A stretch of DNA of 64,000 nucleotides from contig CAYSHM010000013.1 in the NCBI GenBank assembly GCA_964430885.1, positions 18,283 through 82,282 of the forward strand. Reading direction: 5' to 3'. How positions within the stretch are numbered: the first letter of the stretch is position 1; every line of letters starts with the position of its first letter. Shown in pieces: positions 26,822 to 45,414 of the stretch. This DNA comes from an uncultured archaeon. Lineage in GTDB: Archaea > Thermoplasmatota > Penumbrarchaeia > JASLWR01. A program made the position numbers and the translations under genes. The notes below the pieces were generated by a model. The model was given only the letters and a program-made list of their open reading frames with translations. It was not told where the DNA came from and made no database searches.

Positions 26822-26898
26822 CCACCAAAATAATTTTGTTGATAGCTCTAATATTCATAAGAACCAAGGTAATGATCAATAGTAACGGAGTTGCGCCC

Positions 26899-27417
26899 TC
26901 ATTTTTTCTTTTCCCGTCTGTAAAGTACAATACCCACAATTAGGAGTACAGCACCCACAAGGAATAATCCGCATGACATACAGCACCCACCGCACAGCTC
27001 CATGAAGCTGTCCTCTATTCCCAGGGGCTCGGTGATGTATATAACAGTACTGTCCGAGGAGGTGATATTGTATAGGCCAGTGTCCGGGATTGTGATCTCA
27101 CCATATTTGACGTATTGTTCCTTCCCCAGTGTCACATCCGTTTCGGTAAACTTTATCGGGATGGTCTTGTTGTACTCTTGATCCTTCACGGTGATATCGA
27201 GATAATCGGGATCCATATATGTCTCATCAGAATCCACCCAAATCTCATATTTTCCCTCTCTTAGGATCTCAACAGACGGTGGTTCAACAGTATATTCCGC
27301 TTCTTCGCTAGGATCCTGAAGTAGGGGAGGTCCTTTGATCACAGCCCAGATTCCACCGCCAACAAGTGCTATGACAAGTATGATTATACTGAATACGATT
27401 AGCAGCTTCTTGCTCAT
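26899..27417 (-). CDS. Bitopic membrane protein, paralog of 27676..28611 (unknown family)
   Basis: N-terminal TM, ~120-aa extracytoplasmic domain, Cys cluster CGGCCMSCG at C-terminal TM. Shares PLL.DPS.EAE, EIW, YVKYGE.TI.D.G.Y.I.S..T.IYIT.PL and LC.GC motifs with the 311-aa neighbour. Confidence 0.6.
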   Translation of the reverse strand: MSKKLLIVFSIIILVIALVGGGIWAVIKGPPLLQDPSEEAEYTVEPPSVEILREGKYEIWVDSDETYMDPDYLDITVKDQEYNKTIPIKFTETDVTLGKEQYVKYGEITIPDTGLYNITSSDSTVIYITEPLGIEDSFMELCGGCCMSCGLFLVGAVLLIVGIVLYRREKKK

Positions 27418-27446
27418 TTACGTTCACCTTTTTTCAATATCATGAA

Positions 27447-27689
27447 TTAAGCAGATTTACCATTTTTGCCCTTGAAAATGAACACTTCTTCAATGGTGGT
27501 GCCAAATATCTCGGCGATATCATGCGCCAGCTGAAGAGATGGATTGTATTTACCCTTTTCCAGATAGAGAATAGTCTCCCTCCTGACACCCGCCTTGATG
27601 GCCAGCTCCTCCTGTGTGAGGTTGAATCTGGCCCTGAACTCCTTGATGCGCGTATCCATGGTATCCATCCCCCTGTTAGCTCCGATCAC
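27447..27689 (-). CDS. XRE-family helix-turn-helix transcriptional regulator (80 aa)
   Basis: [40 protein letters not shown] is a classic Cro/CI-type HTH. Likely true start at internal Met (MDTRIKEF). Overlaps upstream gene end. Confidence 0.8.
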
Positions 27690-28611
27690 CCCATCGGTTG
27701 TAATAAAGCCAACATAGACCCAATATCACCAGGATCACAAAAATTCTCCAACCCGACCAGTAGAAAAGCCTAAAGAAAGGTACAAAGACAACTAGGGAAA
27801 CCAGGATCTCTACGAATATGTAGATAATAAGGGCCGCCGTAGCACTCTTTCTGAAAACATCCCTGGACCGTTCGTCCCGATAGGGAATTCCCTTGGAGAT
27901 GTCCCTGAAGGAGTTTCTGGCCTTCAATATCCTGAATAGCATGATGCCAAAACCAATGGAGATTAAACCTATTCCCCAGTAAATATCTCCGTCATTTTCA
28001 CCCATTAGGGCTATTGCTAGTCCCAATAATAGAATTGGCAGTCCAATGAACGATACAATTATCATTTCCGCCCATAGCTGAAAACGATCTCTCCCTCTCT
28101 TTTTCTTTCCTTCTTTGAGCTTTTTAGACACGCCGGCGTAGATGAGGACGAGACCAATTATTCCCAAGAATAGAGAAATACCGCATCCGTTGCAGAGGGT
28201 TACGAAGTTATGCTCAACCTCCAGAGGCTGCGTGATGTATATGGTGATGTTCTCTGAGGCCAGGATATGATATGCACCACCATCTTTAATGGTCGTCTCC
28301 CCGTACTTGACATATTCATCATCGGCGAGTTTAACCTTGTCATTTTCATTCTTATAGATATTCGCTGAGGCGTTTTTACTGTCAAGAAGTGTTATTTCCA
28401 CCTCTTCAAAATCACCGTAATCGTTCTCCAACCATATTTCCCACTCACCTGTCTTCAGGGTGGCGTTATCGCCATGGGAAAGGGTGTGCTCAGCTTCCTT
28501 GGAAGGGTCCACAAGAAGCGGGGTGCCAAAAAAATACAGAAGGGAACCGCACCCTATTATGGAAAATAGTATTGTGGAAATCCCAGTTATTATCAAGGCC
28601 CGGCCTTTCAT
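27676..28611 (-). CDS. Membrane protein paralog with extra C-terminal 4-TM domain
   Basis: Same N-TM/ectodomain/LCNGCG/TM module as 26899..27417, followed by a ~130-aa polytopic domain. Confidence 0.6.
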
Positions 28612-30807: not shown

Positions 30808-30871
30808 GAGAAAACCCTATTCCTTTCCGATTTTATACTGAATACAATTTTTTAATGTATCTATCTGGTAA

Positions 30872-33037
30872 TTATTCGTCGAACATACCCATAAGAGCAG
30901 TTCCGGATATTTTTGTTATATACACCATGCGCCCTGTCTCAACATCTACCGCCGCCGAGAACATATCGCCCTGTTCCCAGGCGCTGCCTTTCCAGAATAT
31001 CCATCCGTAATTGGCAGACGGCATAACAATACCCGTAATCTGCTGAAGGACCTGAGCAGCGGGAAGCTGAGATGATGTTGCTCCTTTTGCGACCACAATA
31101 CCCAGATCGTTCATGTCCAGATCACCGCTTCTGTCAAAGAGTTCGGTACTAGCCATATCATCACCCGCAACAATATCCACCGCACCTGAGAGTGTGCATC
31201 CTTCATCATCCAACTCGGAGCGTTTGATCCAGGACCAGCCTTCTTCACGGGTATAATCCTTGTCTATCTCTATCTCAGCAGAGTAAGGATCAAGAGGATT
31301 GATGGATTTGGTGATGTTCTTGGCCACCCTTGCAGCATAGAGATGCTCGGGCCAATGAAACCGTTCTTCTTCCGGAATGTCCTCCCACTCCTCTCCCTCA
31401 TGCTCTTCTTCCCATTCTTCATAATCTTCGAATATGGGCTCCAATTCGTCCCAGCTCATATAATCTGCAAGTGTTATATTCCAGTAATGGCTTCCTGCAT
31501 TGTTCTGAGGGTCCAGATTTGAAAGGTTGGCCCAATAAGTTGCTTCCGTTACCAGGGTATTGGAGAACTCATCGGTGAATTCACCCATGCCGGTACTGTT
31601 CCTAATCATAAAATCCAAGGCATCTTCCGGCGACATATGCACTGCAAACTCAGTGTTTATTGGATCTTCCAATTCAGTATTATCGAATTTATAGCCTCCC
31701 TTTGGTATCTTATCCCACTTGAGGAATTCACCATCGGGATGTGTATCTTGGAAGGTAGCTTCAGTATCTTCCCAGGGTATTGGGTCAGATCCCCTGCTGT
31801 AACCGCTTGTCAGGGTTCGGTCCTGTTCTATTATTATCCAGCCCTTTTCATTTTCCTCATCCCAGGTAGTGTTGGTTCGCAGAAAAGTTCTGGTAGGGTA
31901 GGGTGTCTTGCTAGATATCCATACCGTCTGGATAAAATCCAGAAATCCCCAGTACTGACGGGTGATGTTGATCTTCAGGGACGGGATTCCCGCAATATTT
32001 TCCATTTGCTCAGCTGTCCAGTTATAATATCCCTGGGAGACCGCTTCCTCGTAAGGACCCTCGTAGTATACACTTCCCTCATCTCCCACCGTAATATCCT
32101 TGTCCTCATATATCTGATCCTCAAGGGTTGGCTGGACCTCTTCAGTGGGATCGGGATATGTTCGGACATAACCTTCATACTGTATAGGTACAGGAACTGT
32201 AGCTCTGGGAAGCTGGTCGATGGCCATCTCACCCTGGTTCACGGCCTTTATTAAAGTCCGGCTTTTCAGTTCAGAATATTCCGATCTGTCCGCACTGAAG
32301 GAACCGTCAACAGAGACCTTGCCGGTATCGGGTGTGTCCACTACAACAGTGAGGGCCCCGTCAGCGACCATCCTTTCCTGTACACAGCTGTGGATCTCTC
32401 CATAACCCGACTCTGCATCCACCGGGCCGTATACCTTGAAATCCCACTGTCCGTTGCCGGTGATGGTGTAGCGTTCGTATTCACCGCTTGTCTTATTCTC
32501 TGCATAAAGCTCGGCGAAAACAGAGAAATCGTATCTGAAATCATCTCCCATATGAAGTGACGGTTGACGTACCGATATAACTTCGTTCCCCGTATTGTTG
32601 ATGGGAACTAGGATGGATGTCAGCGTCAATTTCACCGTTGTTCCGGAAATATCTGTTACAAGTACCTGTATATCATAAATTTCATCTTTATCGGTGTCCA
32701 CGTACTCCGGGATATCCAAAGTGGCAGTAACCTCCACTGGGTCGGATTCAATTATAAGGGTGACCGTATCACCATCTATACCGGTTACGGTAACCGAATG
32801 GGTCACGGCACCAACCACCATTTCCTCCGTCTCACCCACTTTGATGCCTTCTGAGGTGGACTCTCCCTGCTGGATCGGATCGTTATTGCTAGGCCCTGAA
32901 CCCGGTTTCTCATCATCATCATCATTATTCAGCTCTTCTTCCTTTTCCCACACGTTATCAAAGATACCGAAATAGACGACGTTGATTAGAAGACTAGCGA
33001 TACAGATTATTATTAGCAAAGTTTTGATCTTGCTCAT
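30872..33037 (-). CDS. Secreted/N-terminally anchored 721-aa protein, tandem paralog A
   Basis: Same architecture as 28648..30807. Begins MSKIKTL(L/I)IIICIASLL.NVVYFG in both. Confidence 0.7.
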   Translation of the reverse strand: MSKIKTLLIIICIASLLINVVYFGIFDNVWEKEEELNNDDDDEKPGSGPSNNDPIQQGESTSEGIKVGETEEMVVGAVTHSVTVTGIDGDTVTLIIESDPVEVTATLDIPEYVDTDKDEIYDIQVLVTDISGTTVKLTLTSILVPINNTGNEVISVRQPSLHMGDDFRYDFSVFAELYAENKTSGEYERYTITGNGQWDFKVYGPVDAESGYGEIHSCVQERMVADGALTVVVDTPDTGKVSVDGSFSADRSEYSELKSRTLIKAVNQGEMAIDQLPRATVPVPIQYEGYVRTYPDPTEEVQPTLEDQIYEDKDITVGDEGSVYYEGPYEEAVSQGYYNWTAEQMENIAGIPSLKINITRQYWGFLDFIQTVWISSKTPYPTRTFLRTNTTWDEENEKGWIIIEQDRTLTSGYSRGSDPIPWEDTEATFQDTHPDGEFLKWDKIPKGGYKFDNTELEDPINTEFAVHMSPEDALDFMIRNSTGMGEFTDEFSNTLVTEATYWANLSNLDPQNNAGSHYWNITLADYMSWDELEPIFEDYEEWEEEHEGEEWEDIPEEERFHWPEHLYAARVAKNITKSINPLDPYSAEIEIDKDYTREEGWSWIKRSELDDEGCTLSGAVDIVAGDDMASTELFDRSGDLDMNDLGIVVAKGATSSQLPAAQVLQQITGIVMPSANYGWIFWKGSAWEQGDMFSAAVDVETGRMVYITKISGTALMGMFDE

Positions 33038-33785: not shown

Positions 33786-34301
33786 TCAATATGTCTTCCC
33801 GCATCTGGTACATCTGTAATCAACGCCGTCTAGGAACTTTATCTCATCATAACCGCATTTTGGGCAGTTTCCGTAATTTTCCGGTTTTTCCCTATCCCTA
33901 TTCTCGATTTCCATCTTGAACTTCTCTTTTTCAACATTGAACAGCTGTATGCAAATACCAAGGGTAAGAAGGGAAATTACTATAGTGGGTATGTCAAGGT
34001 AGAGCGGGTTAACAGAGATTTTTGTGGAGATTAGATAATCTTTTTCCAGAAAATACATCAGAGATATCTCTACAAGAGCCAGAATAATATTGGCTATGGC
34101 AAGCCAGATGCCGATCCTTGGTCCCTTGTAATCCGATTTCCATATGCTGTAGGCTGCACCGAATCCGAGTATTCCGATGATGTATCCAATAGAAAAAGTT
34201 ATGCCCTGGAATAAAATGAGTCTAATAACTACTGACAGAATGCCAATAACAACAAATAGACCTGTGCCGATTATTCTTAATCCCATGTTATCATTTCTCA
34301 T
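33786..34301 (-). CDS. 4-TM membrane protein with C-terminal cytoplasmic zinc ribbon
   Basis: Four hydrophobic helices, then GNCPKCGYDEIKFLDGVDYRCTRCGKTY (C4 ribbon). Confidence 0.6.
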   Translation of the reverse strand: MRNDNMGLRIIGTGLFVVIGILSVVIRLILFQGITFSIGYIIGILGFGAAYSIWKSDYKGPRIGIWLAIANIILALVEISLMYFLEKDYLISTKISVNPLYLDIPTIVISLLTLGICIQLFNVEKEKFKMEIENRDREKPENYGNCPKCGYDEIKFLDGVDYRCTRCGKTY

Positions 34302-34350
34302 ATTCCATCACCCCCATGTTCTGCCTTTTTAACATCCTGACTTCCCTGAT

Positions 34351-34566
34351 CTAATATTCATGGCCGCATTTGGTACATTTGTAAACAACACCATCAACGA
34401 ATTTCAGCTTGTCGTTCCCGCATTTTGGGCAGTTACCCAGTTCCCTCTCGTATATCCTACGTAAACGCCGCAGTTCTTTCTCCGCAAGCTGGGAAAGGTT
34501 GATCCACTGATTTTCCTTCCACCATTTCCAGATATCCTTACCCAGAGTGATATTTACTTTTGGCAT
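34351..34566 (-). CDS. Small RHH-like/zinc-ribbon protein (71 aa)
   Basis: N-terminal beta-strand + helix (KVNITLGKDIWKWWKEN...LAEKELRRLRRIYE) resembling ribbon-helix-helix. C-terminal GNCPKCGNDKLKFVDGVVYKCTKCGHEY is near-identical in pattern to the ribbon of 33786..34301. Confidence 0.55.
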   Translation of the reverse strand: MPKVNITLGKDIWKWWKENQWINLSQLAEKELRRLRRIYERELGNCPKCGNDKLKFVDGVVYKCTKCGHEY

Positions 34567-34590
34567 AGATTCACATATCTCAATTGTATT

Positions 34591-35091
34591 TTACGGATGA
34601 AACCAGTAAATATATCCGCACATAGAACAAACGTAATTTTGTGCATTTTTGTTCGTCCAATCCCAATCCAAAAATGTTAAACCCCTGGTATTCAAAAGGG
34701 TCTTACGGCTCCAGAATTGATCGTATCTGCAAACGGGACAGGTCAATTTGTTCCCTTGAATGACAACTTCGCTTGCTTCCCGTTTCTCTTTTTTCACTTT
34801 TTTTGTTTTGAGAATGACAGGGTCGCCATCGCGGATCTTCAGCAGCTCCATGTCCTCCTCCCGGATGCAGGCATACCCTTTACGAATATAACTGTCGTAT
34901 ACCAGCTGGACAAATATTCCCTTTCTTTCATCTCCGGCATTACATAATTCAATGGCATTATCTTTTTCAAGACCAGCGTCCTCCCAATCATCTATATGTA
35001 TCCTCACAACGCCCGGTTGTCCTTTTATTTTGCTGGTCTTGGCTCTCAGTTCCATTTTGTTCACCTCAATTTCTTCCTTCGCTATGATCAT
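34591..35091 (-). CDS. Double-psi beta-barrel (Cdc48-N/VatN-like) domain protein with C-terminal zinc ribbon
   Basis: Two half-repeats GQPGVVRIHIDDWEDAGLEKDNAIEL and RKGIFVQLVYDS..YACIREEDMELLKIRDGDPVIL resemble the GRGIARID/LGVSVGDVV repeats of the Cdc48 N-domain. C-terminal CPVCRY...CSMCGY. Confidence 0.45.
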   Translation of the reverse strand: MIIAKEEIEVNKMELRAKTSKIKGQPGVVRIHIDDWEDAGLEKDNAIELCNAGDERKGIFVQLVYDSYIRKGYACIREEDMELLKIRDGDPVILKTKKVKKEKREASEVVIQGNKLTCPVCRYDQFWSRKTLLNTRGLTFLDWDWTNKNAQNYVCSMCGYIYWFHP

Positions 35092-35123: not shown

Positions 35124-35336
35124 TCAATTCGAATCTGCGATTTTATTGAGTTCCGACTGAACAAAGGCTAGCATTACAATATCGAGAAGGAAAAATAAGA
35201 TGAACCAAAACCATTTTTTATTATCTTTCTTAACATGATCAGCAAAGCCTTCAGAATATTTATATTTCCAAAAAATGTTAACAAAAGGAATTATTATCAG
35301 CCAGCCTGTTGGTATTTTTGCTCCCAGACGGTTCAT
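35124..35336 (-). CDS. Small membrane protein (70 aa), DUF4234-like second half
   Basis: Hydrophobic stretches with FVNIFWKYKY aromatic motif. Immediately preceded by a 32-aa ORF with TTFGIYGIYW. Confidence 0.4.
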   Translation of the reverse strand: MNRLGAKIPTGWLIIIPFVNIFWKYKYSEGFADHVKKDNKKWFWFILFFLLDIVMLAFVQSELNKIADSN

Positions 35337-35348
35337 CTCATTTTTAGT

Positions 35349-35447
35349 TTAAACTGACCAATAGATTCCATAGATACCAAAGGTGGTTAATGCAAATAGA
35401 TACACCAATATAATATTTCTTTTTTTAACCATTTTTTTATGTTCCAT
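35349..35447 (-). CDS. Small hydrophobic ORF (32 aa), possible first half of a split DUF4234-like gene
   Basis: MEHKKMVKKRNIILVYLFALTTFGIYGIYWSV. The GIYxIYW motif recurs in the next ORF. Not in ORF track (<60 aa). Confidence 0.25.
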   Translation of the reverse strand: MEHKKMVKKRNIILVYLFALTTFGIYGIYWSV

Positions 35448-35687
35448 ATTAAGTTCCTCTGTAGATATTTCTTAGTGGTGCAATTATCGAAAGTTTCTTT
35501 CACCCATTTTTCACCTGACCTGGCCGTTTTGGTCCCGACAGGTGCGGACAAAAATTCTAAAAATCTTTACGCCTTAAGGAGTATATAGGAGTATGATTTT
35601 AATAAATATATCGGTCAAAAGGAAAGATAAAATTCAAAATTTGTCCTGAAAAAAGCCTTGATGTGATGAATACACATCGAGAAGGTC

Positions 35688-36797
35688 CTAGAGCCGCGAT
35701 CGGATCCATTCCCTGTGCTCCCAGAGAGCGCATCCCCCGGAGGTCTCGTCCAGCCGCTCCCGGTTCTCCCTTATCACCCTGAGAAGGTCGGATCTCAATG
35801 CTTCTTTCAGGGAGTATTCCCGCAGGTTCCGGTCTGAATACGGCGCAAAAGGGCAGGCCTCCACGTCGCCTCCCGGACCTATATGGACAAATCCCCGTCC
35901 AGATGAGAGGCAGCCTCCGAACTTCTCTTCGTCTCCTGGGAAGGATATGAACAGCGCAGGTATCTCCCTTTCAAGAACCTTCAATCTTTCCGCAAGCATC
36001 TGCCTTTCACCGTCATCGATCTCCAGCTCCTCGGTCCCCTCTTCCACCGGTATATACTCCACAAAGAAGAACAGCCTGCACCCGGTCTTGTGAAGACCAG
36101 TAATGAAATCCTTTCTGGTGAGGAGGTCAAGGTTCTCACTGGTCACTGTGAAAGATACACCGAACATACTGCCCCTTTTCTCCATCTTCTGAAATAGCTC
36201 GGTCATTCTATTGTAGACACCCTCTCCCCGCCGGTCATCGGTAATTGAACGGGGGCCTTCGATACTGACAGTTGGCAGGACATTATGGCTCCTCGATATT
36301 CTGTCAAGTTTTCTATCCGACAGCAGAAGGCCGTTGGTGAATACAGGGAAAAGTATCGAGGGGTGTTTTTCAATAAGCGGAATAAGGTCGTCCCGCATGA
36401 AGGGCTCGCCTCCGGCCATAAGTATTACGGAAATGCCAAGTTCTTCGGCCTCTATGAGAAGTCCATCCAGCATTTCAGAATCCATCTCCTTTCCGTCCTT
36501 TCTGCCCTGGGCCTTGGAATAGCATCCCTTGCAGTTGAGATTGCATCTCTGAGTAACGGAGGCGATCATGAAGGCAGGAACATGAAGACCCTTTTGCCTC
36601 CATTCCTTCCTTCTTCTGCCTGCATTACGCTGGTCATTGAATATTTTCAGCAGCCGGTAGGCATGGCGGGTATCCCCGAGAGCAATCCTCATGGCGTCCT
36701 TGAAGAACAGGAGCATTGAGCTGTTAAAGAGGTTCATGTATTCTTCTTCTGTCAGGTTTTCCTGGTTCATTGCGTCACCTTGAATATTTTTCATCAT
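35688..36797 (-). CDS. Radical SAM protein with C-terminal SPASM/twitch-like Cys motifs
   Basis: CNLNCKGC (CxxxCxxC), GGEP glycine-rich SAM motif, C-terminal GGCLSSGRGFVHIGPGGDVEACPFAP...GGCALWEH. ~80-aa N-terminal extension. Confidence 0.8.
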   Translation of the reverse strand: MMKNIQGDAMNQENLTEEEYMNLFNSSMLLFFKDAMRIALGDTRHAYRLLKIFNDQRNAGRRRKEWRQKGLHVPAFMIASVTQRCNLNCKGCYSKAQGRKDGKEMDSEMLDGLLIEAEELGISVILMAGGEPFMRDDLIPLIEKHPSILFPVFTNGLLLSDRKLDRISRSHNVLPTVSIEGPRSITDDRRGEGVYNRMTELFQKMEKRGSMFGVSFTVTSENLDLLTRKDFITGLHKTGCRLFFFVEYIPVEEGTEELEIDDGERQMLAERLKVLEREIPALFISFPGDEEKFGGCLSSGRGFVHIGPGGDVEACPFAPYSDRNLREYSLKEALRSDLLRVIRENRERLDETSGGCALWEHREWIRSRL

Positions 36798-36844
36798 TGT
36801 TATATTATTTGTTCAACATGGAGTCGTTTCTTTACAATTCATTC

Positions 36845-39223
36845 TCATTGGTATCTTAAAGCGTCTCCGGGCTTCAGCTTGGTGGCTCTTCTCAGCGGAA
36901 ACTGGATTATCACAATAGCGATAACAAGTGTAATACCAAGGGACATCAGGATATAGATGCCGGGGAATTGATGCGTAAAGTTGATCCCGAATATCTCGTT
37001 CATCATCCATATAAGGAATCGTCCCACCGCGTAGCCTCCGGGAATTCCTAGTATCCACCCGATAGAAGCCAGGACCACACCTTCGGTCCCGAACACCCGC
37101 CTGATATGCTTGGACAGGGAGCCCAGGCACCTCATCATTCCTATCTCCTTTGTTCTCTCCAGAACGTTCATTGTCATGGTGCTCACTAGTCCTATCATGG
37201 TGATAAGGACGATAAGGGTCCCTACGGCAGCCATGAGCTGGAACATAAGATTGTTCATACGGAGGTTTTCCTCCTCCATGACATACCAGATCTGATTGTT
37301 CACCACATAACCCATGGAGAGCATCTTGTCCTCGATATCGGTGGATACACGGTCGATAAGGCCATGGTCGTCGGAATCGGTCCTGATGGCGAATCCGTTG
37401 ATCATATTCTCCCATCCCACAGCATGCTGGAGGGAGTCCAGGGGTACATATCCGGTAAAACCGTTCATCATCTGCGAGGATGTCAGACCGATCACAGTGA
37501 AGTTCCAGGGCCCCCTGGGCGTGCTTACCTCTACAGTATCACCCACGCCGATACCTGTTCGACTGGCCATGTTCTGTGCAAGAACCATCACGCTGGCATT
37601 TTTATTTTCCTCCGATCCGCTGAACCATCTTCCCCTGTAGACTGTCCGATCATGACGGAAGGTCTCGGTATCATGTGAGAATCCGAATAGATACATGGCT
37701 TCCCCCTCCATCTCTCCTTCTATAAGCATGAAGGGTTCTGCCGTCTCTACGCCGTCCATACTCTCCAGGTCGAACCTGTTGCTCTCGAAAAGGGGTCTGG
37801 CCCCTTCGGTTTGGGTCTGGGACAGGATGTCGATATTGAAGTTATCATACTCCTCAACCACGGCGCTTGAAAGGGAATAACCCACTGTGACAATGCCCAG
37901 GAACATGGAAACCGCCAATGTGACCTGGAGTATGGTTGCCAGGCTTCTCCCTTTCCTCCGGGCTATGTTCCTGATGCCCATCTGAATTGTTCTTGGCATT
38001 CTTTTGAGTCCCATTAGTATCCGATCAGTCATTCCGATACCGTATCCCGATGAGATATTCCCGCCTTCAAGCCCTTCCCTTACTGTGATCTTGAGGCCCT
38101 TTCTAAGAGCGGGTATTATTGCCAGAAGAGTAATGATAATTCCTGATAAGAATGTTATGATGACTGTAAACCAGTGAATATTGAAGGGAGGTATAAGACC
38201 GTAGAATGTTGATGCTATGAACCTGAGGAAATAGTGGGATATGAATATACCGAGGATTACTCCGAGGAGCGACCCGCCGGCGCTCATGAGCACTGATGTA
38301 GTCATGTAGGAACGTATTATCTGAAATCTGGTGGCGCCGATGGCCTTCATCTGGGCAATCTCTTTTCTCTGCTCCGTTATCATGGTGTTCATGGTGTTTG
38401 CTATAAGGAACACTGCACAGAAAAGAGTAAGGAAGGTCATTACGTAGAAGAACAGGGAGTTGTTCTGGAATTCTTCTTTTCCAGGATATTCACTTTGCTT
38501 GTTGATCTCAGGCATATTGGAGAAAGAAGTGAATTCGGTATTGGCCAAAAGGAATGCTCTAACAGTTTCCACAGTTTCCTCTGCCTCAGATTGGGTAGAT
38601 TTTTGGAGGTCGAGTGCAAGAGAATTATAGCCGGATGAATTCGAGATGGCCCTGACCGTATCCAGATTACCGTAGAATACTGCCAGTCCGAAGGAAGTGT
38701 GCGGATAGGTTATGCTGTGTGCCTTTCCGGTGATGTTCAGTTCGGTCTCCACCCCCTCTGAGGTGAATATTCTTACCCTGTCACCGCTGAATAGACCGTT
38801 CCTGGTGTTTCCTTCATCAGCTAATAGCTCCATATGACCCGGTTGACCCCCTGAATCCAAAGCTACTCGGTTAACCTTCTGGTCATCGAAATCCTCTATG
38901 CCGACGATATAGGCCTGGGCTCTCCTTTCGCCTTTGTAGTACCGGGTAACGAAAAAAACTCTTGCCTCTAGATCTTCTACATTATCAAGTCCTCTCAGGC
39001 CATTCAGCTCATCCTTTGTCAGTTCCAGGTCATAGGTTGACAACTGAACGTCATAGAGATTAGCCTTTCTCAATTCGTCTTCCATAGCCTCGTCCATCAA
39101 TGGGGTCACAGCGAAAAGACTAAGGCTGGCCACTGCCAATGTTATGGTGAGCATGGTGAAGATGGTCCGGGATTTTCTGAGTTTCAGGTCCCCGAAGCTC
39201 TTCTTTATTATGCTGGGTATCAT
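36845..39223 (-). CDS. ABC transporter permease with duplicated FtsX domains (YbbP/BceB-like), 792 aa
   Basis: EQRKEIAQMKAIGATRFQI and ERTKEIGMMRCLGSLSKHI FtsX signatures, each followed by three TMs. Large ectodomains. Confidence 0.85.
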   Translation of the reverse strand: MIPSIIKKSFGDLKLRKSRTIFTMLTITLAVASLSLFAVTPLMDEAMEDELRKANLYDVQLSTYDLELTKDELNGLRGLDNVEDLEARVFFVTRYYKGERRAQAYIVGIEDFDDQKVNRVALDSGGQPGHMELLADEGNTRNGLFSGDRVRIFTSEGVETELNITGKAHSITYPHTSFGLAVFYGNLDTVRAISNSSGYNSLALDLQKSTQSEAEETVETVRAFLLANTEFTSFSNMPEINKQSEYPGKEEFQNNSLFFYVMTFLTLFCAVFLIANTMNTMITEQRKEIAQMKAIGATRFQIIRSYMTTSVLMSAGGSLLGVILGIFISHYFLRFIASTFYGLIPPFNIHWFTVIITFLSGIIITLLAIIPALRKGLKITVREGLEGGNISSGYGIGMTDRILMGLKRMPRTIQMGIRNIARRKGRSLATILQVTLAVSMFLGIVTVGYSLSSAVVEEYDNFNIDILSQTQTEGARPLFESNRFDLESMDGVETAEPFMLIEGEMEGEAMYLFGFSHDTETFRHDRTVYRGRWFSGSEENKNASVMVLAQNMASRTGIGVGDTVEVSTPRGPWNFTVIGLTSSQMMNGFTGYVPLDSLQHAVGWENMINGFAIRTDSDDHGLIDRVSTDIEDKMLSMGYVVNNQIWYVMEEENLRMNNLMFQLMAAVGTLIVLITMIGLVSTMTMNVLERTKEIGMMRCLGSLSKHIRRVFGTEGVVLASIGWILGIPGGYAVGRFLIWMMNEIFGINFTHQFPGIYILMSLGITLVIAIVIIQFPLRRATKLKPGDALRYQ

Positions 39224-39274
39224 TTTATTCCACTCCTCTTTCTCCTTGCATTGATATGTTTTCAGGATTTTTCA

Positions 39275-39955
39275 CTACTGTGCCGACGCCCTGCCGTCAA
39301 GAATGGTTATTTTTCTATCCGCCTTGGCTGCCAGTTCTCTGCTGTGGGTGACGTAGATAATGGTCTTACCTCTCTTGTTCAGTCTCTTGAACAGCTTGAA
39401 CATCTCGCTCTCGGTCTTTGAATCAAGATTGCCGGTAGGTTCGTCGCCGATTATGATCCACGGATCGTTGGCAAGAGATCGGGCGATGGCAACTCTCTGC
39501 TGTTCTCCTCCGGATAGTTCAGAGGGCAGATTGTCTAGTTTGTCCCCTAGGCCCACAAGCTCCAGGTTCTTTTTGGCCGTATCCCTTCTCTCCTTCAGGC
39601 TCCCTCGGCCTGCAAAATCCATGGGGAGTATGGCGTTCTCCAGGGCAGTTAGGGTGGGGAAAAGCTGGAAGAACTGAAATACTATCCCCACGTTCTTTCC
39701 TCTCCACTTGGCCAGCTCGTCCTCCTTCATCCTGTCGATCCTCTGCCCTCCAACGGTGATGGTCCCTTCGGTGGGCCGATCGATGCCGGTGATCATGTTC
39801 AGAAGGGTGGATTTTCCGCTGCCAGATGGCCCGACTATTGCCGTTAGTTCTCCCTTTTTTATGGTAAGGTCTATCTCCTTCAAGGCCTGAAATTCCATCT
39901 TTCCTGTGGTGTAGGTCTTTGACAGGCTGTTCAGTTGTATCTCTCTCATTTTCAT
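39275..39955 (-). CDS. ABC transporter ATP-binding protein
   Basis: [36 protein letters not shown]. Confidence 0.9.
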
Positions 39956-40087
39956 TCCTCCTTATTTTCTTCGTTTTGACTATTTCCATTTCCGGATTTC
40001 AACGGTAGTTTCTGCAGCATCAAGGCTGCTTTTAAACGAATTAAATACTAAAATCACAATATATTTTCAGTTCATTTTCCCGATACC

Positions 40088-41002
40088 TCAGCTGCCGATA
40101 AGCAGCCGTTTGGACATCCTTCCGTGAAGCCTTCCCAGAATGCTTACAAGGTGCATTGTCCATGTGAGGATGGCAAATCCCAGAAGCATGGTCACTGCCT
40201 GGAACCAGGCGGGTCCCGGAAGCACACCTACCATCAGACCGTTTATGTTTAGCAGATATATGATGGGTGCACCGATAAGTGCAATTGCCACGGCGAAGAA
40301 GGTCACGATGAGGGTGAAATAGATTATCCCCAGGGGGAAGATCAATAGCATGTAGAGCATGGAAGTGTATAGTTTGGGGTTCTTCAGGATGGTCCAGACC
40401 CTTTTCCACAGCTTACCCTTGACCTTGTACTTTCTTCTTTTACGGGGCATTCTTATTCCAAGTAGTTTTTCGGTGAGACGTCCGTGGAAGAAAGATATGG
40501 GAGATATGCTCAGCAGAAACAGTGCCAGGAGAGGCAGGCCTATAATTGTAACGATAAGTCCCAGACTGAGTGAAAGGCCAGTGACTATATAGGTGAAGTA
40601 GATTATTCCCAAGGGGAACATCAGGAACAGATAAAGGAGGCTTCGGTAGGTCACACTGTCGGCATAAACCCCGAATATTGTTCCCAGTAACCCTTTTCTT
40701 CTCTCCTCCCGTTTTTTCTGGATCCTTTTCTTGTAGCTTTTATCCTGCTTGATGTACTCCTTTGCTATTGTCTTGGGATTTCCGTACTGTCTGATCGCCA
40801 GCTTGACAAGGCGGCCCATGTCGTCTATCTTACTTCTTTCAGCAATATCAGTTATTAGCTCGGTCAAATGCTCTTCTGCATCATCCAGTGCGTCAGCTGT
40901 TATTGCTGGATCCGCATCCTCAAGGCATTTCTCCAATTTCTTGATATAATCCTTTATCGTCAATATCTCACCCATAAATACCACCTCCCAGAACTGTATC
41001 AA
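40088..41002 (-). CDS. DUF1700-like membrane protein with internally duplicated TM region
   Basis: N-terminus IKDYIKKLEKCLEDADPAITADALDDAEEHLTEL..GNPKTIAKEY resembles DUF1700. Two ~60-aa TM halves (LYLFLMFPLGIIYFTYIVTG.../MLYMLLIFPLGIIYFTLIVTF...) are clear repeats. Confidence 0.6.
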   Translation of the reverse strand: MIQFWEVVFMGEILTIKDYIKKLEKCLEDADPAITADALDDAEEHLTELITDIAERSKIDDMGRLVKLAIRQYGNPKTIAKEYIKQDKSYKKRIQKKREERRKGLLGTIFGVYADSVTYRSLLYLFLMFPLGIIYFTYIVTGLSLSLGLIVTIIGLPLLALFLLSISPISFFHGRLTEKLLGIRMPRKRRKYKVKGKLWKRVWTILKNPKLYTSMLYMLLIFPLGIIYFTLIVTFFAVAIALIGAPIIYLLNINGLMVGVLPGPAWFQAVTMLLGFAILTWTMHLVSILGRLHGRMSKRLLIGS

Positions 41003-41516
41003 CGAACCGTTTGGTCCGATTCCAGGTCTCAGTCCAAATGTCCAGCTTCTTCTTTCCCTTGGTTGTAATATCGTAGTATTTTCTCGGAGGTCCGGATTCG
41101 GATGCCTTGAGGAAACTTTTCAGGAACCCTTTCTTCTCCATTGACCTGAGAACTGGATAAATGGTTCCCTGTTTCAGCTCCATTCGGTTGTGGCCCCTAT
41201 CGCTCATCTCCTTTGCGATCTGGTAGCCGTACATCGCTTTTTTGGACTTGTCTAGCACCGACAGCAGGATCAATGATATCAGACCAGTGATGATATCTTT
41301 TTCGAACTTGGCGTCCCTTTGCCCTTTTCCCCGGCCGTTTGTACTACGTCCTCTCTTCTTTCCGGCTTTTTTCTTGCTGTCCTTGGTGGACCTTGCCATT
41401 CCTATGAACATGGATGATGCTAGAATTACAGGGGCCAGTGCCTGGGATCTTTTTTCTGATCTGTTTATATTATCACCTTCATATGAATGAGAAAACCATT
41501 TATTCGCTGCTAGCAT
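40968..41516 (-). CDS. PadR family transcriptional regulator (with basic N-terminal extension)
   Basis: YGYQIAKEMSDRGHNRMELKQGTIYPVLRSMEKKGFLKS is the PadR winged-helix core. Alternative starts at 41411/41399. Start 41516 abuts the stop of the upstream gene. Confidence 0.8.
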   Translation of the reverse strand: MLAANKWFSHSYEGDNINRSEKRSQALAPVILASSMFIGMARSTKDSKKKAGKKRGRSTNGRGKGQRDAKFEKDIITGLISLILLSVLDKSKKAMYGYQIAKEMSDRGHNRMELKQGTIYPVLRSMEKKGFLKSFLKASESGPPRKYYDITTKGKKKLDIWTETWNRTKRFVDTVLGGGIYG

Positions 41517-41517
41517 T

Positions 41518-42480
41518 CTACATCCCTCCTTTGGTTTTTATTGAATGAACCTGGTATCCGTAAAGGTCAACATCTCCATTGGAGGTCTTAATCTCCAGTA
41601 GAGTTCCGCCGTTCCCAATTGTGCCTTTGATCTTATTATCTCCGAAGTTGGACCGGGATATCATTAGGTTATGGAAATCCAGATCACCGTTGCTGGTGCT
41701 CATCTCCACGTTCAGATCGGAATCCAAAGGTATATGCATCTCGATGTCGCCATTGCTGGTCTTGAGGAATGTATCTGTGACCGAAGCATTGATTACTCGA
41801 ATATTGATGTCCCCGTTGCTTGTTCTGACCTCGCGGATATCAAGGACGTCGAATATATCCACTTTGCCGTTATCGGTAACCGCCTTGACTATGCCGTCAA
41901 CACCACTTATCTGTATGGAACCTGAGTCGCATATGCTTGTAACGTTTCCTGTCACATCAGAGATCCTGACCTTTCCGTGTCCGGTCTTCAGGTCAAGGTC
42001 TCCTTCATGATCGCTAACATATATTGCACCAACCTGAGTTTCGATATGGATGTCCCCTGAAGTGCCTTCTATGTCGATCCTGCCCCAATCGGTCTCCACC
42101 TTCTTCACATGAACCTCGCGGGGTATCTGAATGTCCATCTCAACTGAGACCCATGTTATTGTCTCATCATAATCGGTCCTAATGGAAAAATCAACTCCAG
42201 GACTGATATCTATATCCACCTTATCGAGCTCTTCACGGCCGAAATAGGTTATCTTGAGAACGTCTATTAGTATCTCTGAACCGTCATAGCTTTCTATATT
42301 GAGCTTCCCAAGCTTGTTGTCGATTGTTAATACAGTACCGTTCTGAACTGCGTAGTTCCATGATTGCGATGAGGTTTCCTTCTTGAAATATCCCAATGAG
42401 ATCGCCGATGCAAACCACAATCCGCACATGACGAGCATTGCCAGGGATACTATGATAAAGGCTTTGTTCTTGGTGTTCAT
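41518..42480 (-). CDS. DUF4097 (LiaG-like putative adhesin, beta-helical) membrane-anchored protein
   Basis: N-terminal TM, then repeated TSNGD(I/L)(D/N/E) and G(D/N)(I/V)xI units characteristic of DUF4097. Confidence 0.75.
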   Translation of the reverse strand: MNTKNKAFIIVSLAMLVMCGLWFASAISLGYFKKETSSQSWNYAVQNGTVLTIDNKLGKLNIESYDGSEILIDVLKITYFGREELDKVDIDISPGVDFSIRTDYDETITWVSVEMDIQIPREVHVKKVETDWGRIDIEGTSGDIHIETQVGAIYVSDHEGDLDLKTGHGKVRISDVTGNVTSICDSGSIQISGVDGIVKAVTDNGKVDIFDVLDIREVRTSNGDINIRVINASVTDTFLKTSNGDIEMHIPLDSDLNVEMSTSNGDLDFHNLMISRSNFGDNKIKGTIGNGGTLLEIKTSNGDVDLYGYQVHSIKTKGGM

Positions 42481-42689
42481 TTCTTTACCTCCAGGGTACT
42501 TTTTTCAAGGGTATTATGGTGCCTACAATATTAAACACTTTACAGTATTGTAAACTCCACAATAGTATATATACGTTCTTATTTTATTCTAAAAATAGCA
42601 TATCGACGGATATGTCATGTTATAAACTCCGGATAATTTCCGGTAATTTAGCTGTAGAAAAAATGGATTCTCCTTTCGGAAAATGAAAA

Positions 42690-45212: not shown

Positions 45213-45414
45213 TTCAATCCCGTTTTTACAATACTATAAATTGCATTTACTGCAATTGCATATGCTGCTATACTATCACTAATTGATCTGGATTTATTTT
45301 TAACTGATGCCTGCAATTTAAAATTATTTGGGAAATATTTTTATGTGCTCATTTTGAATGGCCTTAAGTGTAAGGTAAACCTTAAATTTATTCAATTTCC
45401 GATCATATGCACGG

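What the first reader, a model, noticed from the sequence alone, without database searches (positions are those of the whole stretch)
35688..42480. Radical-SAM/SPASM enzyme co-transcribed with a double-FtsX ABC exporter and a PadR/DUF1700/DUF4097 envelope-stress triad
Minus-strand order is DUF4097, PadR (abutting stop/start), DUF1700-like membrane protein, ABC ATPase, double-FtsX permease, radical SAM. The rSAM has CxxxCxxC plus a C-terminal Cys-rich twitch/SPASM-like region typical of peptide- or cofactor-modifying maturases. Pairing with a BceB/YbbP-like exporter and a PadR sensor module resembles RiPP/bacteriocin or modified-lipid export loci, but no Cys-rich precursor ORF is obvious. The nearest small ORFs are an 18-aa plus-strand ORF at 35593 and a 32-aa hydrophobic ORF at 35349-35447.
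Basis: partly seen in the sequence, partly recalled or inferred. Interest (0 to 1): 0.6.

Follow-up and report, generated by a model that had tools for sequence, protein, structure and literature searches.

The report
Stand-alone radical SAM beside ABC exporter
All six genes are real, but the radical-SAM enzyme belongs to a large unnamed enzyme family of oxygen-avoiding microbes that has no fixed gene partners, so this looks like an ordinary membrane-stress sensor and exporter with an unrelated enzyme gene next door, not a peptide-antibiotic or lipid-export factory.

Summary
The gene calls are confirmed. On the minus strand the order is Toastrack/DUF4097, PadR, a HAAS multi-TM protein, an ABC ATPase, a fused double MacB/FtsX permease and a radical SAM (rSAM) enzyme, in a Thermoplasmatota archaeon.

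The functional coupling of the rSAM is not supported.
- **Family:** the rSAM passes no curated family model. It belongs to a large unnamed ~360-aa family (about 950 50%-identity clusters, at least 586 species genomes) of anaerobic Bacteria and Archaea.
- **Cofactor sites:** it has CX3CX2C plus a twitch-like half-SPASM with only three conserved Cys.
- **From the rSAM side:** across 75-80 homologous loci there is no conserved neighbour, no conserved small ORF and no PadR, HAAS or Toastrack. An FtsX permease lies within 3 kb in only one locus.
- **From the exporter side:** six orthologous exporter loci keep the ATPase+permease pair, never with this rSAM. Three of them carry PspC or PadR-HAAS nearby.

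The 32-aa "candidate precursor" is the N-terminal piece of an interrupted DUF4234 gene.

My best reading is three units. One is a known-type HAAS-PadR-Toastrack envelope-stress module. The second is a MacB-type exporter loosely associated with it. The third is an independently acting, functionally uncharacterised rSAM. Its nearest relatives form a ~470-aa family that may be the bacterial lipid-coupling enzyme Mss; I could not test this. Interest is low to moderate.

The parts
41518..42480 (-). Membrane-anchored Toastrack (DUF4097) protein, 320 aa. It is the first gene of the sensor triad.
   Evidence: Pfam DUF4097 52.6 bits (cut-off 22.9) and a weak LiaF-like_C hit. NCBIfam LiaG 43 bits, below cut-off. 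One N-terminal TM segment at residues 9-27. An SD-like GGAGG lies before the ATG.
40968..41516 (-). PadR-family winged-helix regulator, 182 aa, with a basic N-terminal extension of about 75 aa (or a mis-called start).
   Evidence: Pfam PadR 74.8 bits over residues 84-158. It starts 1 nt after the Toastrack stop. Homologues at 61-70% identity keep the same position in L096-L098.
40088..41002 (-). HAAS-domain membrane signalling protein. An N-terminal soluble HAAS region is followed by 4-5 TM helices of the PF13796 'Sensor' type. The gene-caller start is 40975, which overlaps the PadR 3' end.
   Evidence: Pfam PF13796 123.7 bits (2 stretches) and HAAS 23.2 bits over residues 18-82, E 8.8e-5, below cut-off 27. 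TM prediction. Gene call of 295 aa.
39275..39955 (-). ABC ATPase of the LolD/MacB/FtsE type.
   Evidence: ABC_tran 134.6 bits. Best NCBIfam hit is LolD, 232 bits, below cut-off. It is 73-78% identical to the ATPase paired with orthologous permeases. An SD-like AAGGAGG lies before the ATG, after a 132-nt AT-rich gap containing TTTAAA.
36845..39223 (-). Fused double MacB-type permease, 792 aa, with 8 TM helices arranged as 2 x (TM, MacB_PCD loop, 3 TM).
   Evidence: FtsX 114 bits (2 stretches) and MacB_PCD 68.7 bits (2 stretches). TM map. Full-length orthologues at 31-51% identity occur only in Thermoplasmatota.
35688..36797 (-). Soluble radical SAM enzyme of an unnamed ~360-aa family. It has an N-terminal two-helix hairpin, a CX3CX2C core and a twitch-like C-terminus with three conserved Cys.
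   Evidence: Pfam and NCBIfam results. Conserved residues. AF2 model with pLDDT 89.8. Best solved match is SkfB, TM 0.64. No TM helices. No SD motif; an AT-rich AAATAATATAA lies before the start.
35660..35678 (-). Hairpin followed by T-runs immediately after the rSAM stop codon. This is the likely end of the transcript.
   Evidence: Terminator-like site. Several oligo-T tracts are visible in the sequence.
42539..42554 (.). Perfect palindrome TTTACAATACTGTAAA, 59-74 nt upstream of the Toastrack gene. It is a candidate PadR operator or promoter element.
   Evidence: It is the only exact match in the window, with a one-mismatch copy at 45225-45240 upstream of the PKD gene. No copy lies before the ABC or rSAM genes.

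Best explanation
The stretch is three units that happen to lie head to tail, not one system.

**Unit 1: sensor triad.** The three tightly packed genes are a Toastrack protein, PadR, and a HAAS protein with a multi-TM sensor region. They form a membrane-stress signalling module of the published HAAS-PadR type. In the inferred mechanism, the membrane protein senses an envelope perturbation and changes how its HAAS domain holds the PadR repressor. PadR then changes transcription, probably at the palindrome upstream of the triad.

**Unit 2: exporter.** The next two genes encode a MacB-type (mechanotransmission) ABC exporter. It consists of a separate ATPase and a fused double permease with two extracytoplasmic MacB_PCD domains. 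The pair is conserved across Thermoplasmatota. It is a plausible, but unproven, output or partner of the sensor.

**Unit 3: radical SAM enzyme.** The last gene encodes a soluble radical SAM enzyme from a very large, unnamed family found in anaerobic bacteria and archaea, which works on its own.
- It would cleave SAM at the CX3CX2C cluster and abstract a hydrogen atom from a substrate.
- The substrate would be held between the barrel, the N-terminal helical hairpin and a twitch domain carrying one auxiliary Fe-S cluster on three Cys.
- The substrate is unknown.
- My leading guess (about 0.3) is a membrane-lipid hydrocarbon chain or another anionic lipid-linked or small molecule. This rests on its nearest relatives being a ~470-aa family that fits the description of the bacterial lipid-coupling enzyme Mss.

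What is shown: gene content, domain identity, and lack of conserved linkage. What is inferred: the signalling mechanism, the sensor-exporter coupling and the rSAM chemistry.
For: **Domains and architecture.**

**The rSAM has no fixed partners.**
- In 75 diverse genome loci, the largest neighbour cluster is generic ABC ATPases. They occur in 7 loci at varying positions and strands.
- Pfam on 136 ±1 and 127 ±2 neighbours finds no family in more than 6 members.
- tblastn with the window's proteins finds FtsX permeases within 10 kb in 3 of 80 loci. It finds no PadR, HAAS or Toastrack homologue in any locus.
- No conserved 15-100 aa ORF lies within 1.5 kb.

**Reverse test from the exporter.**
- Six orthologous permease loci all keep the ATPase+permease pair, and none has this rSAM.
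- MAG Zod_Metabat.400 carries the permease orthologue and an rSAM homologue on different contigs.

**The triad is an autonomous unit.** L097 and L098 keep Toastrack-PadR-HAAS without any ABC transporter. L096 has PadR-HAAS-ATPase-double FtsX.

**Exporter and stress-module association.**
- PspC lies upstream of the pair in L092 and L093, and PadR+HAAS lies nearby in L090.
- HAAS-PadR, Toastrack, and their links to FtsX/MacB_PCD and ABC operons are described in PMC11237479.

**rSAM family phylogeny.** The tree is star-like. Archaea are scattered among bacteria, and Thermoplasmatota are not monophyletic.

**Translation signals.** SD-like motifs precede the Toastrack, ATPase and permease starts but not the rSAM start.
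Against: - The rSAM follows the permease by only 47 nt on the same strand, with no terminator-like T-run between them. Read-through co-transcription in this organism is therefore quite possible.
- Its GC and GC3 match its neighbours, so there is no sign of recent insertion.
- No close relatives of this organism exist in the databases. The best rSAM and permease hits are about 52% identical. A lineage-specific functional link cannot be excluded by comparative data alone.
- One deltaproteobacterial locus (L064) also has an FtsX permease and an ABC ATPase 2-3 kb upstream of its rSAM.
- The sensor-exporter coupling is seen in only 2 of 4 triad loci.
- The HAAS match is below Pfam's cut-off.
Confidence: 0.72

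Rival explanations
1. One reading: a RiPP/bacteriocin locus. The rSAM would be a peptide maturase, the double-FtsX ABC would export or confer immunity to the modified peptide, and PadR would regulate the locus.
For: The rSAM lies in the SPASM/twitch structural neighbourhood. Its best solved matches are the RiPP maturases SkfB, SuiB and CteB. MacB/BceAB-type ABC systems do handle peptides, which is established knowledge. All genes are on the same strand with short gaps.
Against: - The N-terminal extension is a two-helix hairpin.
- No sactisynthase, ranthipeptide or other maturase model comes near its cut-off; scores are 52-66 bits against cut-offs of 340-650.
- No conserved small ORF lies next to 75 family members.
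- The local small ORFs have 0-2 Cys, and the 32-aa one is a DUF4234 fragment.
- The family is about 50% identical across some 20 phyla and both domains. It is essentially always a lone gene, unlike patchy, fast-evolving RiPP clusters.
- No protease or other tailoring gene is present.
Confidence: 0.03
2. Lineage-specific recruitment. In this Thermoplasmatota lineage the rSAM is co-transcribed with the exporter. It would modify a membrane or envelope lipid, or a lipid-linked glycan, that the MacB-type transporter extracts or that is needed under envelope stress.
For: - The 47-nt gap has no terminator, and the first terminator-like element comes only after the rSAM.
- Composition is similar to the neighbouring genes.
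- Some family members lie next to UbiA prenyltransferases (L005, L007, L009), PEMT, a PMT_2 glycosyltransferase, or NapH-like membrane polyferredoxins.
- The nearest relatives may be the lipid enzyme Mss (PMC13159169).
Against: - The linkage is seen only here, across 80 rSAM loci and six exporter loci.
- Lipid-flavoured neighbours occur in only a handful of the 75 loci.
- The UbiA neighbours belong to different subfamilies.
- The rSAM lacks the SD motif that the other internal genes have.
Confidence: 0.1
3. This rival concerns the enzyme only and is compatible with the best explanation. The rSAM would be a maturase or biosynthetic enzyme for a soluble cofactor, metabolite, protein or RNA common to anaerobes, and not a lipid enzyme.
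For: - It is a stand-alone gene with no operon partner.
- It is soluble.
- Several Arg residues are invariant (R63, R135, R189, R190, R343), and the second N-terminal helix is very basic, with net charge +7. Both features suggest an anionic substrate.
- A three-Cys auxiliary site, as in MoaA, could bind a substrate directly. MoaA is among the structural matches.
- One relative is fused to a MutT/NUDIX domain.
- Ferredoxin or flavodoxin genes are the commonest neighbours.
Against: No curated cofactor or maturase model is approached. The NUDIX fusion is a single representative among about 950. No target gene is ever adjacent.
Confidence: 0.35

Closest known systems
HAAS-PadR-like wHTH signalling dyad with Toastrack partner (Ravi et al., mSystems 2024, PMC11237479)
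   Same: There is a stand-alone PadR next to, and overlapping, a membrane protein with an N-terminal HAAS-like region. A membrane-anchored Toastrack/DUF4097 protein is encoded in the same unit. The paper also reports HAAS fusions to FtsX/MacB_PCD domains and Toastrack operons with an ABC ATPase and permease.
   Different: This example is archaeal (Thermoplasmatota). The HAAS match is sub-threshold. The TM part is PF13796 'Sensor' rather than PspC or LiaF-TM. No PspA or PspC is in the locus. The system is known only from comparative genomics, so the mechanism is untested anywhere close to this lineage.
MacB / LolCDE / FtsEX type VII ABC transporters, including duplicated permeases of the ADOP/YbbP kind
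   Same: The FtsX four-TM unit carries a MacB_PCD extracytoplasmic domain. The ATPase is LolD/MacB-like and separate from the permease. The two permease halves are fused into one 8-TM chain.
   Different: It is below every NCBIfam cut-off: ADOP 133 vs 622 bits, YbbP 23 vs 999 and LolCE 83 vs 362. No adaptor, outer-membrane partner or BceRS-type kinase is present. The substrate is unknown.
Mss, the bacterial membrane-spanning lipid synthase (Sahonero-Canavesi et al., Sci Adv 2022, PMC13159169)
   Same: Both are radical SAM enzymes of anaerobes with a very similar phylum list, including Asgard archaea, and with a pattern of wide horizontal spread. The window protein is 34% identical (E 9e-64) to a ~470-aa family whose length and taxonomy fit published Mss search criteria.
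   Different: I could not obtain the Mss sequence, so the relationship is untested. The window protein is 369 aa, below the ≥400-aa cut-off used for Mss homologues. It has a different, shorter N-terminus and lacks the C-terminal extension of the ~470-aa family.
SkfB, SuiB, CteB, anSME, MoaA and PqqE (solved SPASM/twitch radical SAM enzymes)
   Same: They share the partial TIM-barrel core, the CX3CX2C motif, the GGE motif, and a C-terminal CX13GX4C beta-hairpin that carries an auxiliary cluster. Foldseek TM scores are 0.54-0.64.
   Different: Sequence identity is only 14-20%. The N-terminus is a two-helix hairpin, unlike the ~100-residue N-terminal regions that precede the core in SkfB, SuiB and CteB. 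Only three conserved Cys are available for one auxiliary cluster, whereas full SPASM proteins have seven or eight Cys.
Gms, the GMGT synthase (PMC11214058, PMC11186832)
   Same: It is a radical SAM enzyme of obligate anaerobes in archaea and some bacteria. A helical N-terminal extension sits in front of a SPASM/twitch-class core.
   Different: Gms is ≥400 aa and about 36% identical to AhbD. It has a ~100-aa six-helix COG4001 domain and two fully Cys-ligated auxiliary clusters. The window protein scores 67 bits on the AhbD model, has a two-helix extension and has three C-terminal Cys.

Membership tests
Radical SAM superfamily (PF04055) | CX3CX2C cluster motif and a Pfam score above the gathering threshold | tested here: met
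   C85-X3-C89-X2-C92 is invariant in 87 sequences. Pfam gives 58.2 bits against a cut-off of 29.5. The GGEP motif at 129-132 is invariant.
SPASM domain proteins (PF13186 / 7-Cys motif) | CX9-15GX4C, gap, CX2CX5CX3C, gap, C, binding two auxiliary 4Fe-4S clusters | tested here: not met
   Pfam SPASM scores 18.1 bits, below the 21.5 cut-off. Only C296-X13-G310-X4-C315 and C356 are conserved, and there is no CX2CX5CX3C block.
Twitch-domain radical SAM enzymes | A truncated SPASM consisting of the beta-hairpin with CX9-15GX4C, holding a single auxiliary cluster | tested here: inconclusive
   The half motif is present, and a beta-hairpin is predicted at 303-324. The best structural match is the twitch enzyme SkfB. 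Only three Cys ligands are conserved, and cluster binding cannot be tested in silico.
RiPP maturases (sactisynthases, ranthipeptide, streptide and PqqE/MftC-type) | Family-specific HMM above cut-off | tested here: not met
   StsB 57.6/625, PapB 52.3/340, CbpB 58.4/375, WgkB 65.5/650, MftC 69/265 and PqqE 47.5/381 bits.
RiPP maturases (sactisynthases, ranthipeptide, streptide and PqqE/MftC-type) | An adjacent precursor peptide gene conserved among relatives | tested here: not met
   3457 small ORFs around 75 loci were clustered. The only clusters are antisense shadows of the rSAM gene itself and pairs from two near-identical loci. The local 32-aa ORF is a DUF4234 fragment.
RiPP maturases (sactisynthases, ranthipeptide, streptide and PqqE/MftC-type) | An N-terminal RiPP recognition element (winged helix with a beta-sheet) | tested here: not met
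   The AF2 model shows residues 17-68 as two long helices with no strands.
Haem / haem d1 enzymes AhbC, AhbD and NirJ | NCBIfam equivalog score above cut-off | tested here: not met
   AhbD 67.3/500, AhbC 59.8/650 and NirJ 63.2/515 bits.
Anaerobic sulfatase-maturating enzyme | NCBIfam TIGR03942 above cut-off; full SPASM domain | tested here: not met
   It is not among the 25 best of 66 weak hits. anSME matches only structurally, at TM 0.56. The full SPASM motif is absent.
Gms (GMGT synthase) | ≥400 aa, close AhbD similarity, a COG4001 N-terminal domain and two auxiliary clusters | tested here: not met
   The protein is 369 aa, scores 67 bits on the AhbD model, has a two-helix N-terminus and has three C-terminal Cys. 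The criteria come from PMC11214058 and PMC11186832.
Mss (membrane-spanning lipid synthase) | E ≤1e-50 to T. ethanolicus WP_129545148.1 or T. maritima Tmari_0825 | not testable with these tools
   The sequences are not held in any accessible source. The only indirect evidence is 34% identity, E 9e-64, to a ~470-aa family that fits the published descriptors.
Mss (membrane-spanning lipid synthase) | Length ≥400 aa (operational cut-off in bioRxiv 10.1101/2023.10.20.563219) | tested here: not met
   The window protein is 369 aa, and family members are about 350-390 aa.
HAAS-PadR dyad | A stand-alone PadR wHTH gene adjacent to a gene whose product carries a HAAS domain | tested here: inconclusive
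   PadR scores 74.8 bits and is adjacent to, and overlaps, the next gene. HAAS scores 23.2 bits, E 8.8e-5, below the cut-off of 27, but sits at the expected N-terminal position. The same gene pair is conserved in L096-L098.
Toastrack / DUF4097 | Pfam PF13349 above cut-off | tested here: met
   52.6 bits against a cut-off of 22.9, covering residues 98-306.
DUF1700 (PF08006) | A Pfam match | tested here: not met
   No hit at E ≤0.01. The literature says HAAS partly overlaps DUF1700.
MacB-type (type VII) ABC transporter | An FtsX four-TM unit with a MacB_PCD extracytoplasmic domain, plus a cognate ABC ATPase | tested here: met
   Two FtsX and two MacB_PCD stretches. Eight TM helices in a 1+3 / 1+3 pattern. 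An adjacent ATPase is conserved with the permease in six orthologous loci.
BceAB / YbbP named families | NCBIfam YbbP equivalog; a BceRS-type two-component partner | tested here: not met
   YbbP scores 23.3 against a cut-off of 999. No histidine kinase or response regulator is in the locus.
Prokaryotic viperin / defence systems | A PADLOC model match of family strength | tested here: not met
   pVip scores 46 bits over the generic core only, and the triad gives no hits.

The most novel reading that the evidence does not exclude
The ~360-aa three-Cys twitch radical SAM family has no assigned function. It comprises about 950 50%-identity clusters, occurs in at least 586 species genomes of anaerobic Bacteria and Archaea including Promethearchaeum MK-D1, and is horizontally mixed between the two domains. 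It could be a short paralogue of the lipid-coupling enzyme Mss that remodels membrane hydrocarbon chains. In this Thermoplasmatota genome it would have been captured behind a stress-sensor-linked MacB exporter, so that membrane remodelling is read through from an envelope-stress operon.
Probability: 0.08. Interest if true: 0.6.

Novelty: new member of a known kind. Interest (0 to 1): 0.25.

Why it matters
For the finding as written, the value is mainly negative. It removes a false RiPP or lipid-export lead. It also shows that adjacency in a lineage without sequenced relatives is weak evidence.

Two smaller positives remain.
- **Archaeal sensor modules.** HAAS-PadR-Toastrack and PspC modules recur beside one conserved MacB-type exporter in Thermoplasmatota. 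This extends a bacterial envelope-stress signalling scheme, known only from comparative genomics, to archaea with ether-lipid membranes. It also nominates a concrete output gene pair to test.
- **An uncharacterised enzyme family.** The rSAM is a member of one of the larger still-unnamed radical SAM families of anaerobes. If that family proves related to Mss, it would bear on who makes membrane-spanning and branched tetraether lipids used as palaeoclimate proxies, and on bacterial-type lipid chemistry in archaea.

Tried and rejected
1. **Gms (GMGT synthase).** I considered this from its anaerobe distribution. I rejected it on length, AhbD score, N-terminal domain and Cys count.
2. **Conserved partner search.** I used blastp clustering of ±4 neighbours. 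I also ran Pfam on all ±1 and ±2 neighbours by feeding unrelated proteins in as an 'alignment'. Nothing was conserved.
3. **Methyltransferase + ATP-grasp neighbour cluster.** This dissolved into generic class-I methyltransferase similarity.
4. **UbiA as a partner.** It is adjacent in L005, L007 and L009 only. The UbiA proteins do not recognise each other by phmmer, fit no named UbiA family, and have no counterpart in the window.
5. **Apparent long 'fusion' rSAMs in L056, L063 and L086.** These are upstream-start artefacts of my ORF caller.
6. **A 441-456-aa rSAM/SPASM near the family gene in L046 and L061.** I suspected Gms, but the AhbD model gives only 117-130 bits, so I did not use it as lipid evidence.
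7. **Defence-system reading.** Only generic pVip core similarity was found.
8. **Context of the ~470-aa sister family.** The contigs were short, and an Omnitrophota locus had no lipid cluster.
9. **Obtaining the Mss sequence.** There was no sequence in the text, no supplements were held, and no PDB entry exists.
10. **Other dead ends.** The afdb50 fold library was unavailable. The sigma-70 promoter scan is not meaningful for an archaeon. GC and GC3 give no sign of foreign origin.


Full report
**Observation.** Six minus-strand ORFs occupy 35688-42480 exactly as described. Gene calls on two public copies of the same contig (Logan SRR8062320; ENA SUTE22-1_SAMN10231913 scaffold_785) agree, and both copies are 100% identical to the window. 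Pfam gives the following:
- Toastrack/DUF4097, 52.6 bits.
- PadR, 74.8 bits.
- PF13796 'Sensor', 123.7 bits, with an N-terminal HAAS-like stretch at 23.2 bits (cut-off 27).
- ABC_tran, 134.6 bits.
- A permease with two FtsX and two MacB_PCD stretches.
- Radical_SAM, 58.2 bits.

A simple hydropathy scan predicts:
- one N-terminal anchor in the Toastrack protein;
- 4-5 TM helices after a soluble N-terminus in the HAAS protein;
- eight TM helices in a 1+3/1+3 pattern in the permease;
- no TM helices in the rSAM.

Full-length permease orthologues at 31-51% identity are all from Thermoplasmatota, so the window is from an archaeon of that phylum.

**Corrections to the observation.**
- *C-terminus of the rSAM.* It is not Cys-rich. 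In alignments of 25 and 87 family members, the invariant Cys are C85/C89/C92 and only C296, C315 and C356. C296-X13-G310-X4-C315 is the first half of the SPASM/twitch motif. The CX2CX5CX3C block is absent, and Pfam SPASM is sub-threshold (18.1 vs 21.5 bits).
- *The two small ORFs.* Both exist. The 32-aa hydrophobic ORF (35349-35447) and the 70-aa ORF that follows are in one frame, separated by a TAA. Their joined translation matches DUF4234 across the stop (30.9 bits, cut-off 25.3). It is therefore a fragment of an interrupted membrane-protein gene, not a precursor peptide. None of the local small ORFs has more than two Cys.

**What the rSAM is.** No NCBIfam equivalog is approached. The best hit is TIGR04053 at 75.7 bits (cut-off 395). 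AhbD, NirJ, MftC, PqqE, sactisynthase, ranthipeptide and MoaA models all score 40-70 bits against cut-offs of 265-650. Nevertheless, the protein has thousands of close full-length relatives.
- A word-indexed search found 3324 hits, the best at only 52-54% identity. They are named only 'radical SAM protein' and come from many bacterial phyla.
- A profile search of 1.84 billion representatives found 950 clusters at E ≤1e-30.
- The 80 best loci include 21 archaea (Promethearchaeum syntrophicum MK-D1, Methanoregula, Methanocellales, Methanobacteriaceae, Bathyarchaeia, Thermoplasmatota). They also include bacteria from about 20 phyla, essentially all from anaerobic groups.
- A rough NJ tree is star-like. 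Archaea are scattered among bacteria, and the four Thermoplasmatota sequences are not together. This indicates wide horizontal exchange.

An AlphaFold model built on 87 sequences is confident (pLDDT 89.8). It shows a two-helix N-terminal hairpin (17-41, 43-68), the partial TIM barrel and a C-terminal beta-hairpin region. The second helix is strongly basic, with net charge +7. The best solved matches are SkfB (TM 0.64), SuiB, CteB, anSME, MoaA and PqqE, at 14-20% identity. The enzyme is therefore a twitch-like member of the SPASM/twitch class, with one auxiliary site on three Cys and no characterised close relative.

**Is the rSAM tied to the exporter or the sensor?** I tested this from both sides.
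- *From the rSAM side, large neighbours.* In 75 loci with a complete family gene, blastp clustering of the ±4 neighbours gave no cluster in more than 7 loci. That largest cluster is generic ABC ATPases at varying positions and strands.
- *From the rSAM side, Pfam on neighbours.* Of 136 immediate and 127 second neighbours, no family occurred in more than six. The counts were 4Fe-4S ferredoxins 6, class-I methyltransferases 4, TetR 4 and UbiA 3.
- *From the rSAM side, the window's own proteins.* tblastn found FtsX permeases within 10 kb in 3 of 80 loci, and within 3 kb only in L064. These are distant single-FtsX types. No PadR, HAAS or Toastrack homologue appeared in any locus.
- *From the rSAM side, small ORFs.* Clustering 3457 ORFs of 15-100 aa within 1.5 kb of the gene found only antisense shadows of the rSAM gene itself and pairs from two near-identical loci.
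- *From the exporter side.* Six independent orthologous permease loci (41-51% identity) all keep the ATPase immediately upstream, and none has this rSAM. In MAG Zod_Metabat.400 the permease orthologue and an rSAM homologue lie on different contigs.
- *From the sensor side.* Four relatives of the HAAS protein were found. Two keep Toastrack-PadR-HAAS with unrelated neighbours. One has PadR-HAAS followed by an ABC ATPase and a different 1016-aa double-FtsX permease. None has a family rSAM.

**What the rest is.** PadR + HAAS + Toastrack is the signalling system defined by comparative genomics in PMC11237479.
- That paper proposes that HAAS relays a membrane signal to its partner PadR as an alternative to two-component systems.
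- It notes Toastrack partners, HAAS fusions to FtsX/MacB_PCD domains, and Toastrack operons with an ABC ATPase and permease.
- Consistent with a loose functional association, three of the six orthologous exporter loci carry PSP-type partners next to the pair. PspC plus a CarboxypepD_reg protein lies directly upstream in L092 and L093. A PadR+HAAS dyad lies 1.7 kb away in L090.
- A perfect palindrome, TTTACAATACTGTAAA, lies 59-74 nt upstream of the Toastrack gene. A one-mismatch copy lies upstream of the neighbouring PKD-domain gene. No copy precedes the ABC or rSAM genes.
- SD-like motifs precede the Toastrack, ATPase and permease start codons. The rSAM has none; instead an AT-rich AAATAATATAA sits just upstream. 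Alignment with homologues suggests that its real start may be a downstream Met.
- No terminator-like element separates the permease from the rSAM, whereas a hairpin and T-runs follow the rSAM. Read-through transcription therefore cannot be excluded.

**What the rSAM might do.**
- *Excluded.* I considered and rejected Gms and a defence role.
- *Weak hints towards membranes.* Adjacent UbiA genes of different subfamilies occur in L005 and L007/L009. NapH-like polyferredoxins are adjacent in five loci. PEMT and PMT_2 neighbours also occur.
- *Weak hints towards a soluble anionic substrate.* Several Arg residues are invariant, and a single relative carries a NUDIX/MutT fusion.
- *Strongest lead.* The nearest relatives outside the family form a large family of about 450-490 aa. 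It has at least 2133 members, in Patescibacteria, Omnitrophota, Armatimonadota, Actinomycetota, Firmicutes, Nitrospirota and others. The two families share the core and all three C-terminal Cys positions, at 34% identity and E 9e-64.
- *Possible link to Mss.* The published descriptors of the bacterial membrane-spanning lipid synthase Mss fit that family. Mss occurs only in anaerobes, has a matching phylum list including Asgard and DPANN archaea, and is identified with a ≥400-aa cut-off (PMC13159169, PMC11868695, bioRxiv 10.1101/2023.10.20.563219).
- *Caveat.* I could not obtain an Mss sequence, so this remains an untested lead. The window protein itself fails the ≥400-aa criterion.

**Verdict.** The envelope-stress reading of the triad is supported and already described in kind. 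The exporter is an ordinary MacB-type ABC system, conserved in the phylum and plausibly linked to such sensors. The rSAM is an adjacent, independently distributed enzyme of unknown substrate. The RiPP/bacteriocin or dedicated lipid-export interpretation is not supported. Residual novelty lies in the uncharacterised rSAM family itself and in the archaeal occurrence of HAAS-PadR/PspC modules beside one exporter family.

Noticed in passing
window 35124-35447 (minus strand): A DUF4234-type membrane-protein gene is interrupted by an in-frame TAA at 35349-35351. The 32-aa and 70-aa ORFs join into one DUF4234 match. The stop is present in both public assemblies of this contig, which may derive from the same reads. 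It could be a pseudogene, a sequencing error or read-through.
   Followed up: partly
window 42539-42554 and 45225-45240: A perfect 16-nt palindrome, TTTACAATACTGTAAA, lies upstream of the Toastrack-PadR-HAAS genes. A one-mismatch copy lies 13-28 nt upstream of the 840-aa PKD-domain surface protein gene. These may be a shared PadR operator or a promoter element. With two mismatches allowed, the count is not clearly above chance (6 matches against 1.9 expected; 3 of 100 shuffles reach 6).
   Followed up: partly
window 22389-28611 (minus strand): A second MacB-type module lies nearby: an ABC ATPase (26105-26821) and a 1239-aa FtsX permease (22389-26108). It is preceded by a different small membrane-plus-regulator pair, DUF2178 (27676-28611) and an HTH_3/XRE protein (27447-27668). 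The neighbourhood therefore holds two exporter modules, each with its own membrane-linked regulator.
   Followed up: no
window 28648-33037 (minus strand): Two tandem paralogous proteins of about 720 aa (719 and 721 aa) have an N-terminal TM or signal segment and very acidic sequence. The 721-aa one gave no Pfam match, and the gene-call table lists none for either.
   Followed up: no
window 33786-35091 (minus strand): Three small proteins (166, 71 and 171 aa). Two of them end in the same zinc-ribbon tail, GNCPKCGxDxxKFxDGVxYxCTxCGxxY. The 166-aa protein has its own C-terminal Cys pairs and weak CDC48_N/Molydop_binding-like hits. Their function is unknown.
   Followed up: no
L092 4997-6204 and L093 2784-4031 (upstream of orthologous ABC pairs); L090 11118-12136: In other Thermoplasmatota, the orthologous ATPase+permease pair is preceded by PspC plus a CarboxypepD_reg-domain protein, or lies near a PadR+HAAS dyad. 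This suggests a recurring link between this exporter family and PSP-type envelope-stress sensors in archaea.
   Followed up: partly
P0286 (493 aa, from the representative search): This protein is a MutT/NUDIX hydrolase domain fused to the N-terminus of a member of the rSAM family. It is the only informative fusion seen among the listed representatives. P0289 carries an unexplained C-terminal extension of about 190 aa.
   Followed up: partly
L046 1191-4150 and L061 6595-9575: In two Thermoplasmatota loci, a conserved pair lies 1-6 kb from the family rSAM. The pair is an unknown protein of about 550 aa and a 441-456-aa rSAM with a full SPASM domain and an N-terminal extension of about 130 aa. 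It is not Gms by AhbD-model score. It may be a peptide-maturase pair.
   Followed up: partly
L036, L039, L062, L070, L086 (genes directly flanking the family rSAM): NapH-like (Fer4_5) membrane polyferredoxins are encoded immediately next to the rSAM in five loci from four lineages. They may be electron donors, and they hint at action at the membrane.
   Followed up: partly
window 40968-41516: The PadR ORF carries a Lys/Arg/Gly-rich extension of about 75 aa ahead of the winged-helix domain (Pfam match 84-158). Homologues in L096-L098 align only over about 64% of it, so the annotated start may be too far upstream.
   Followed up: no
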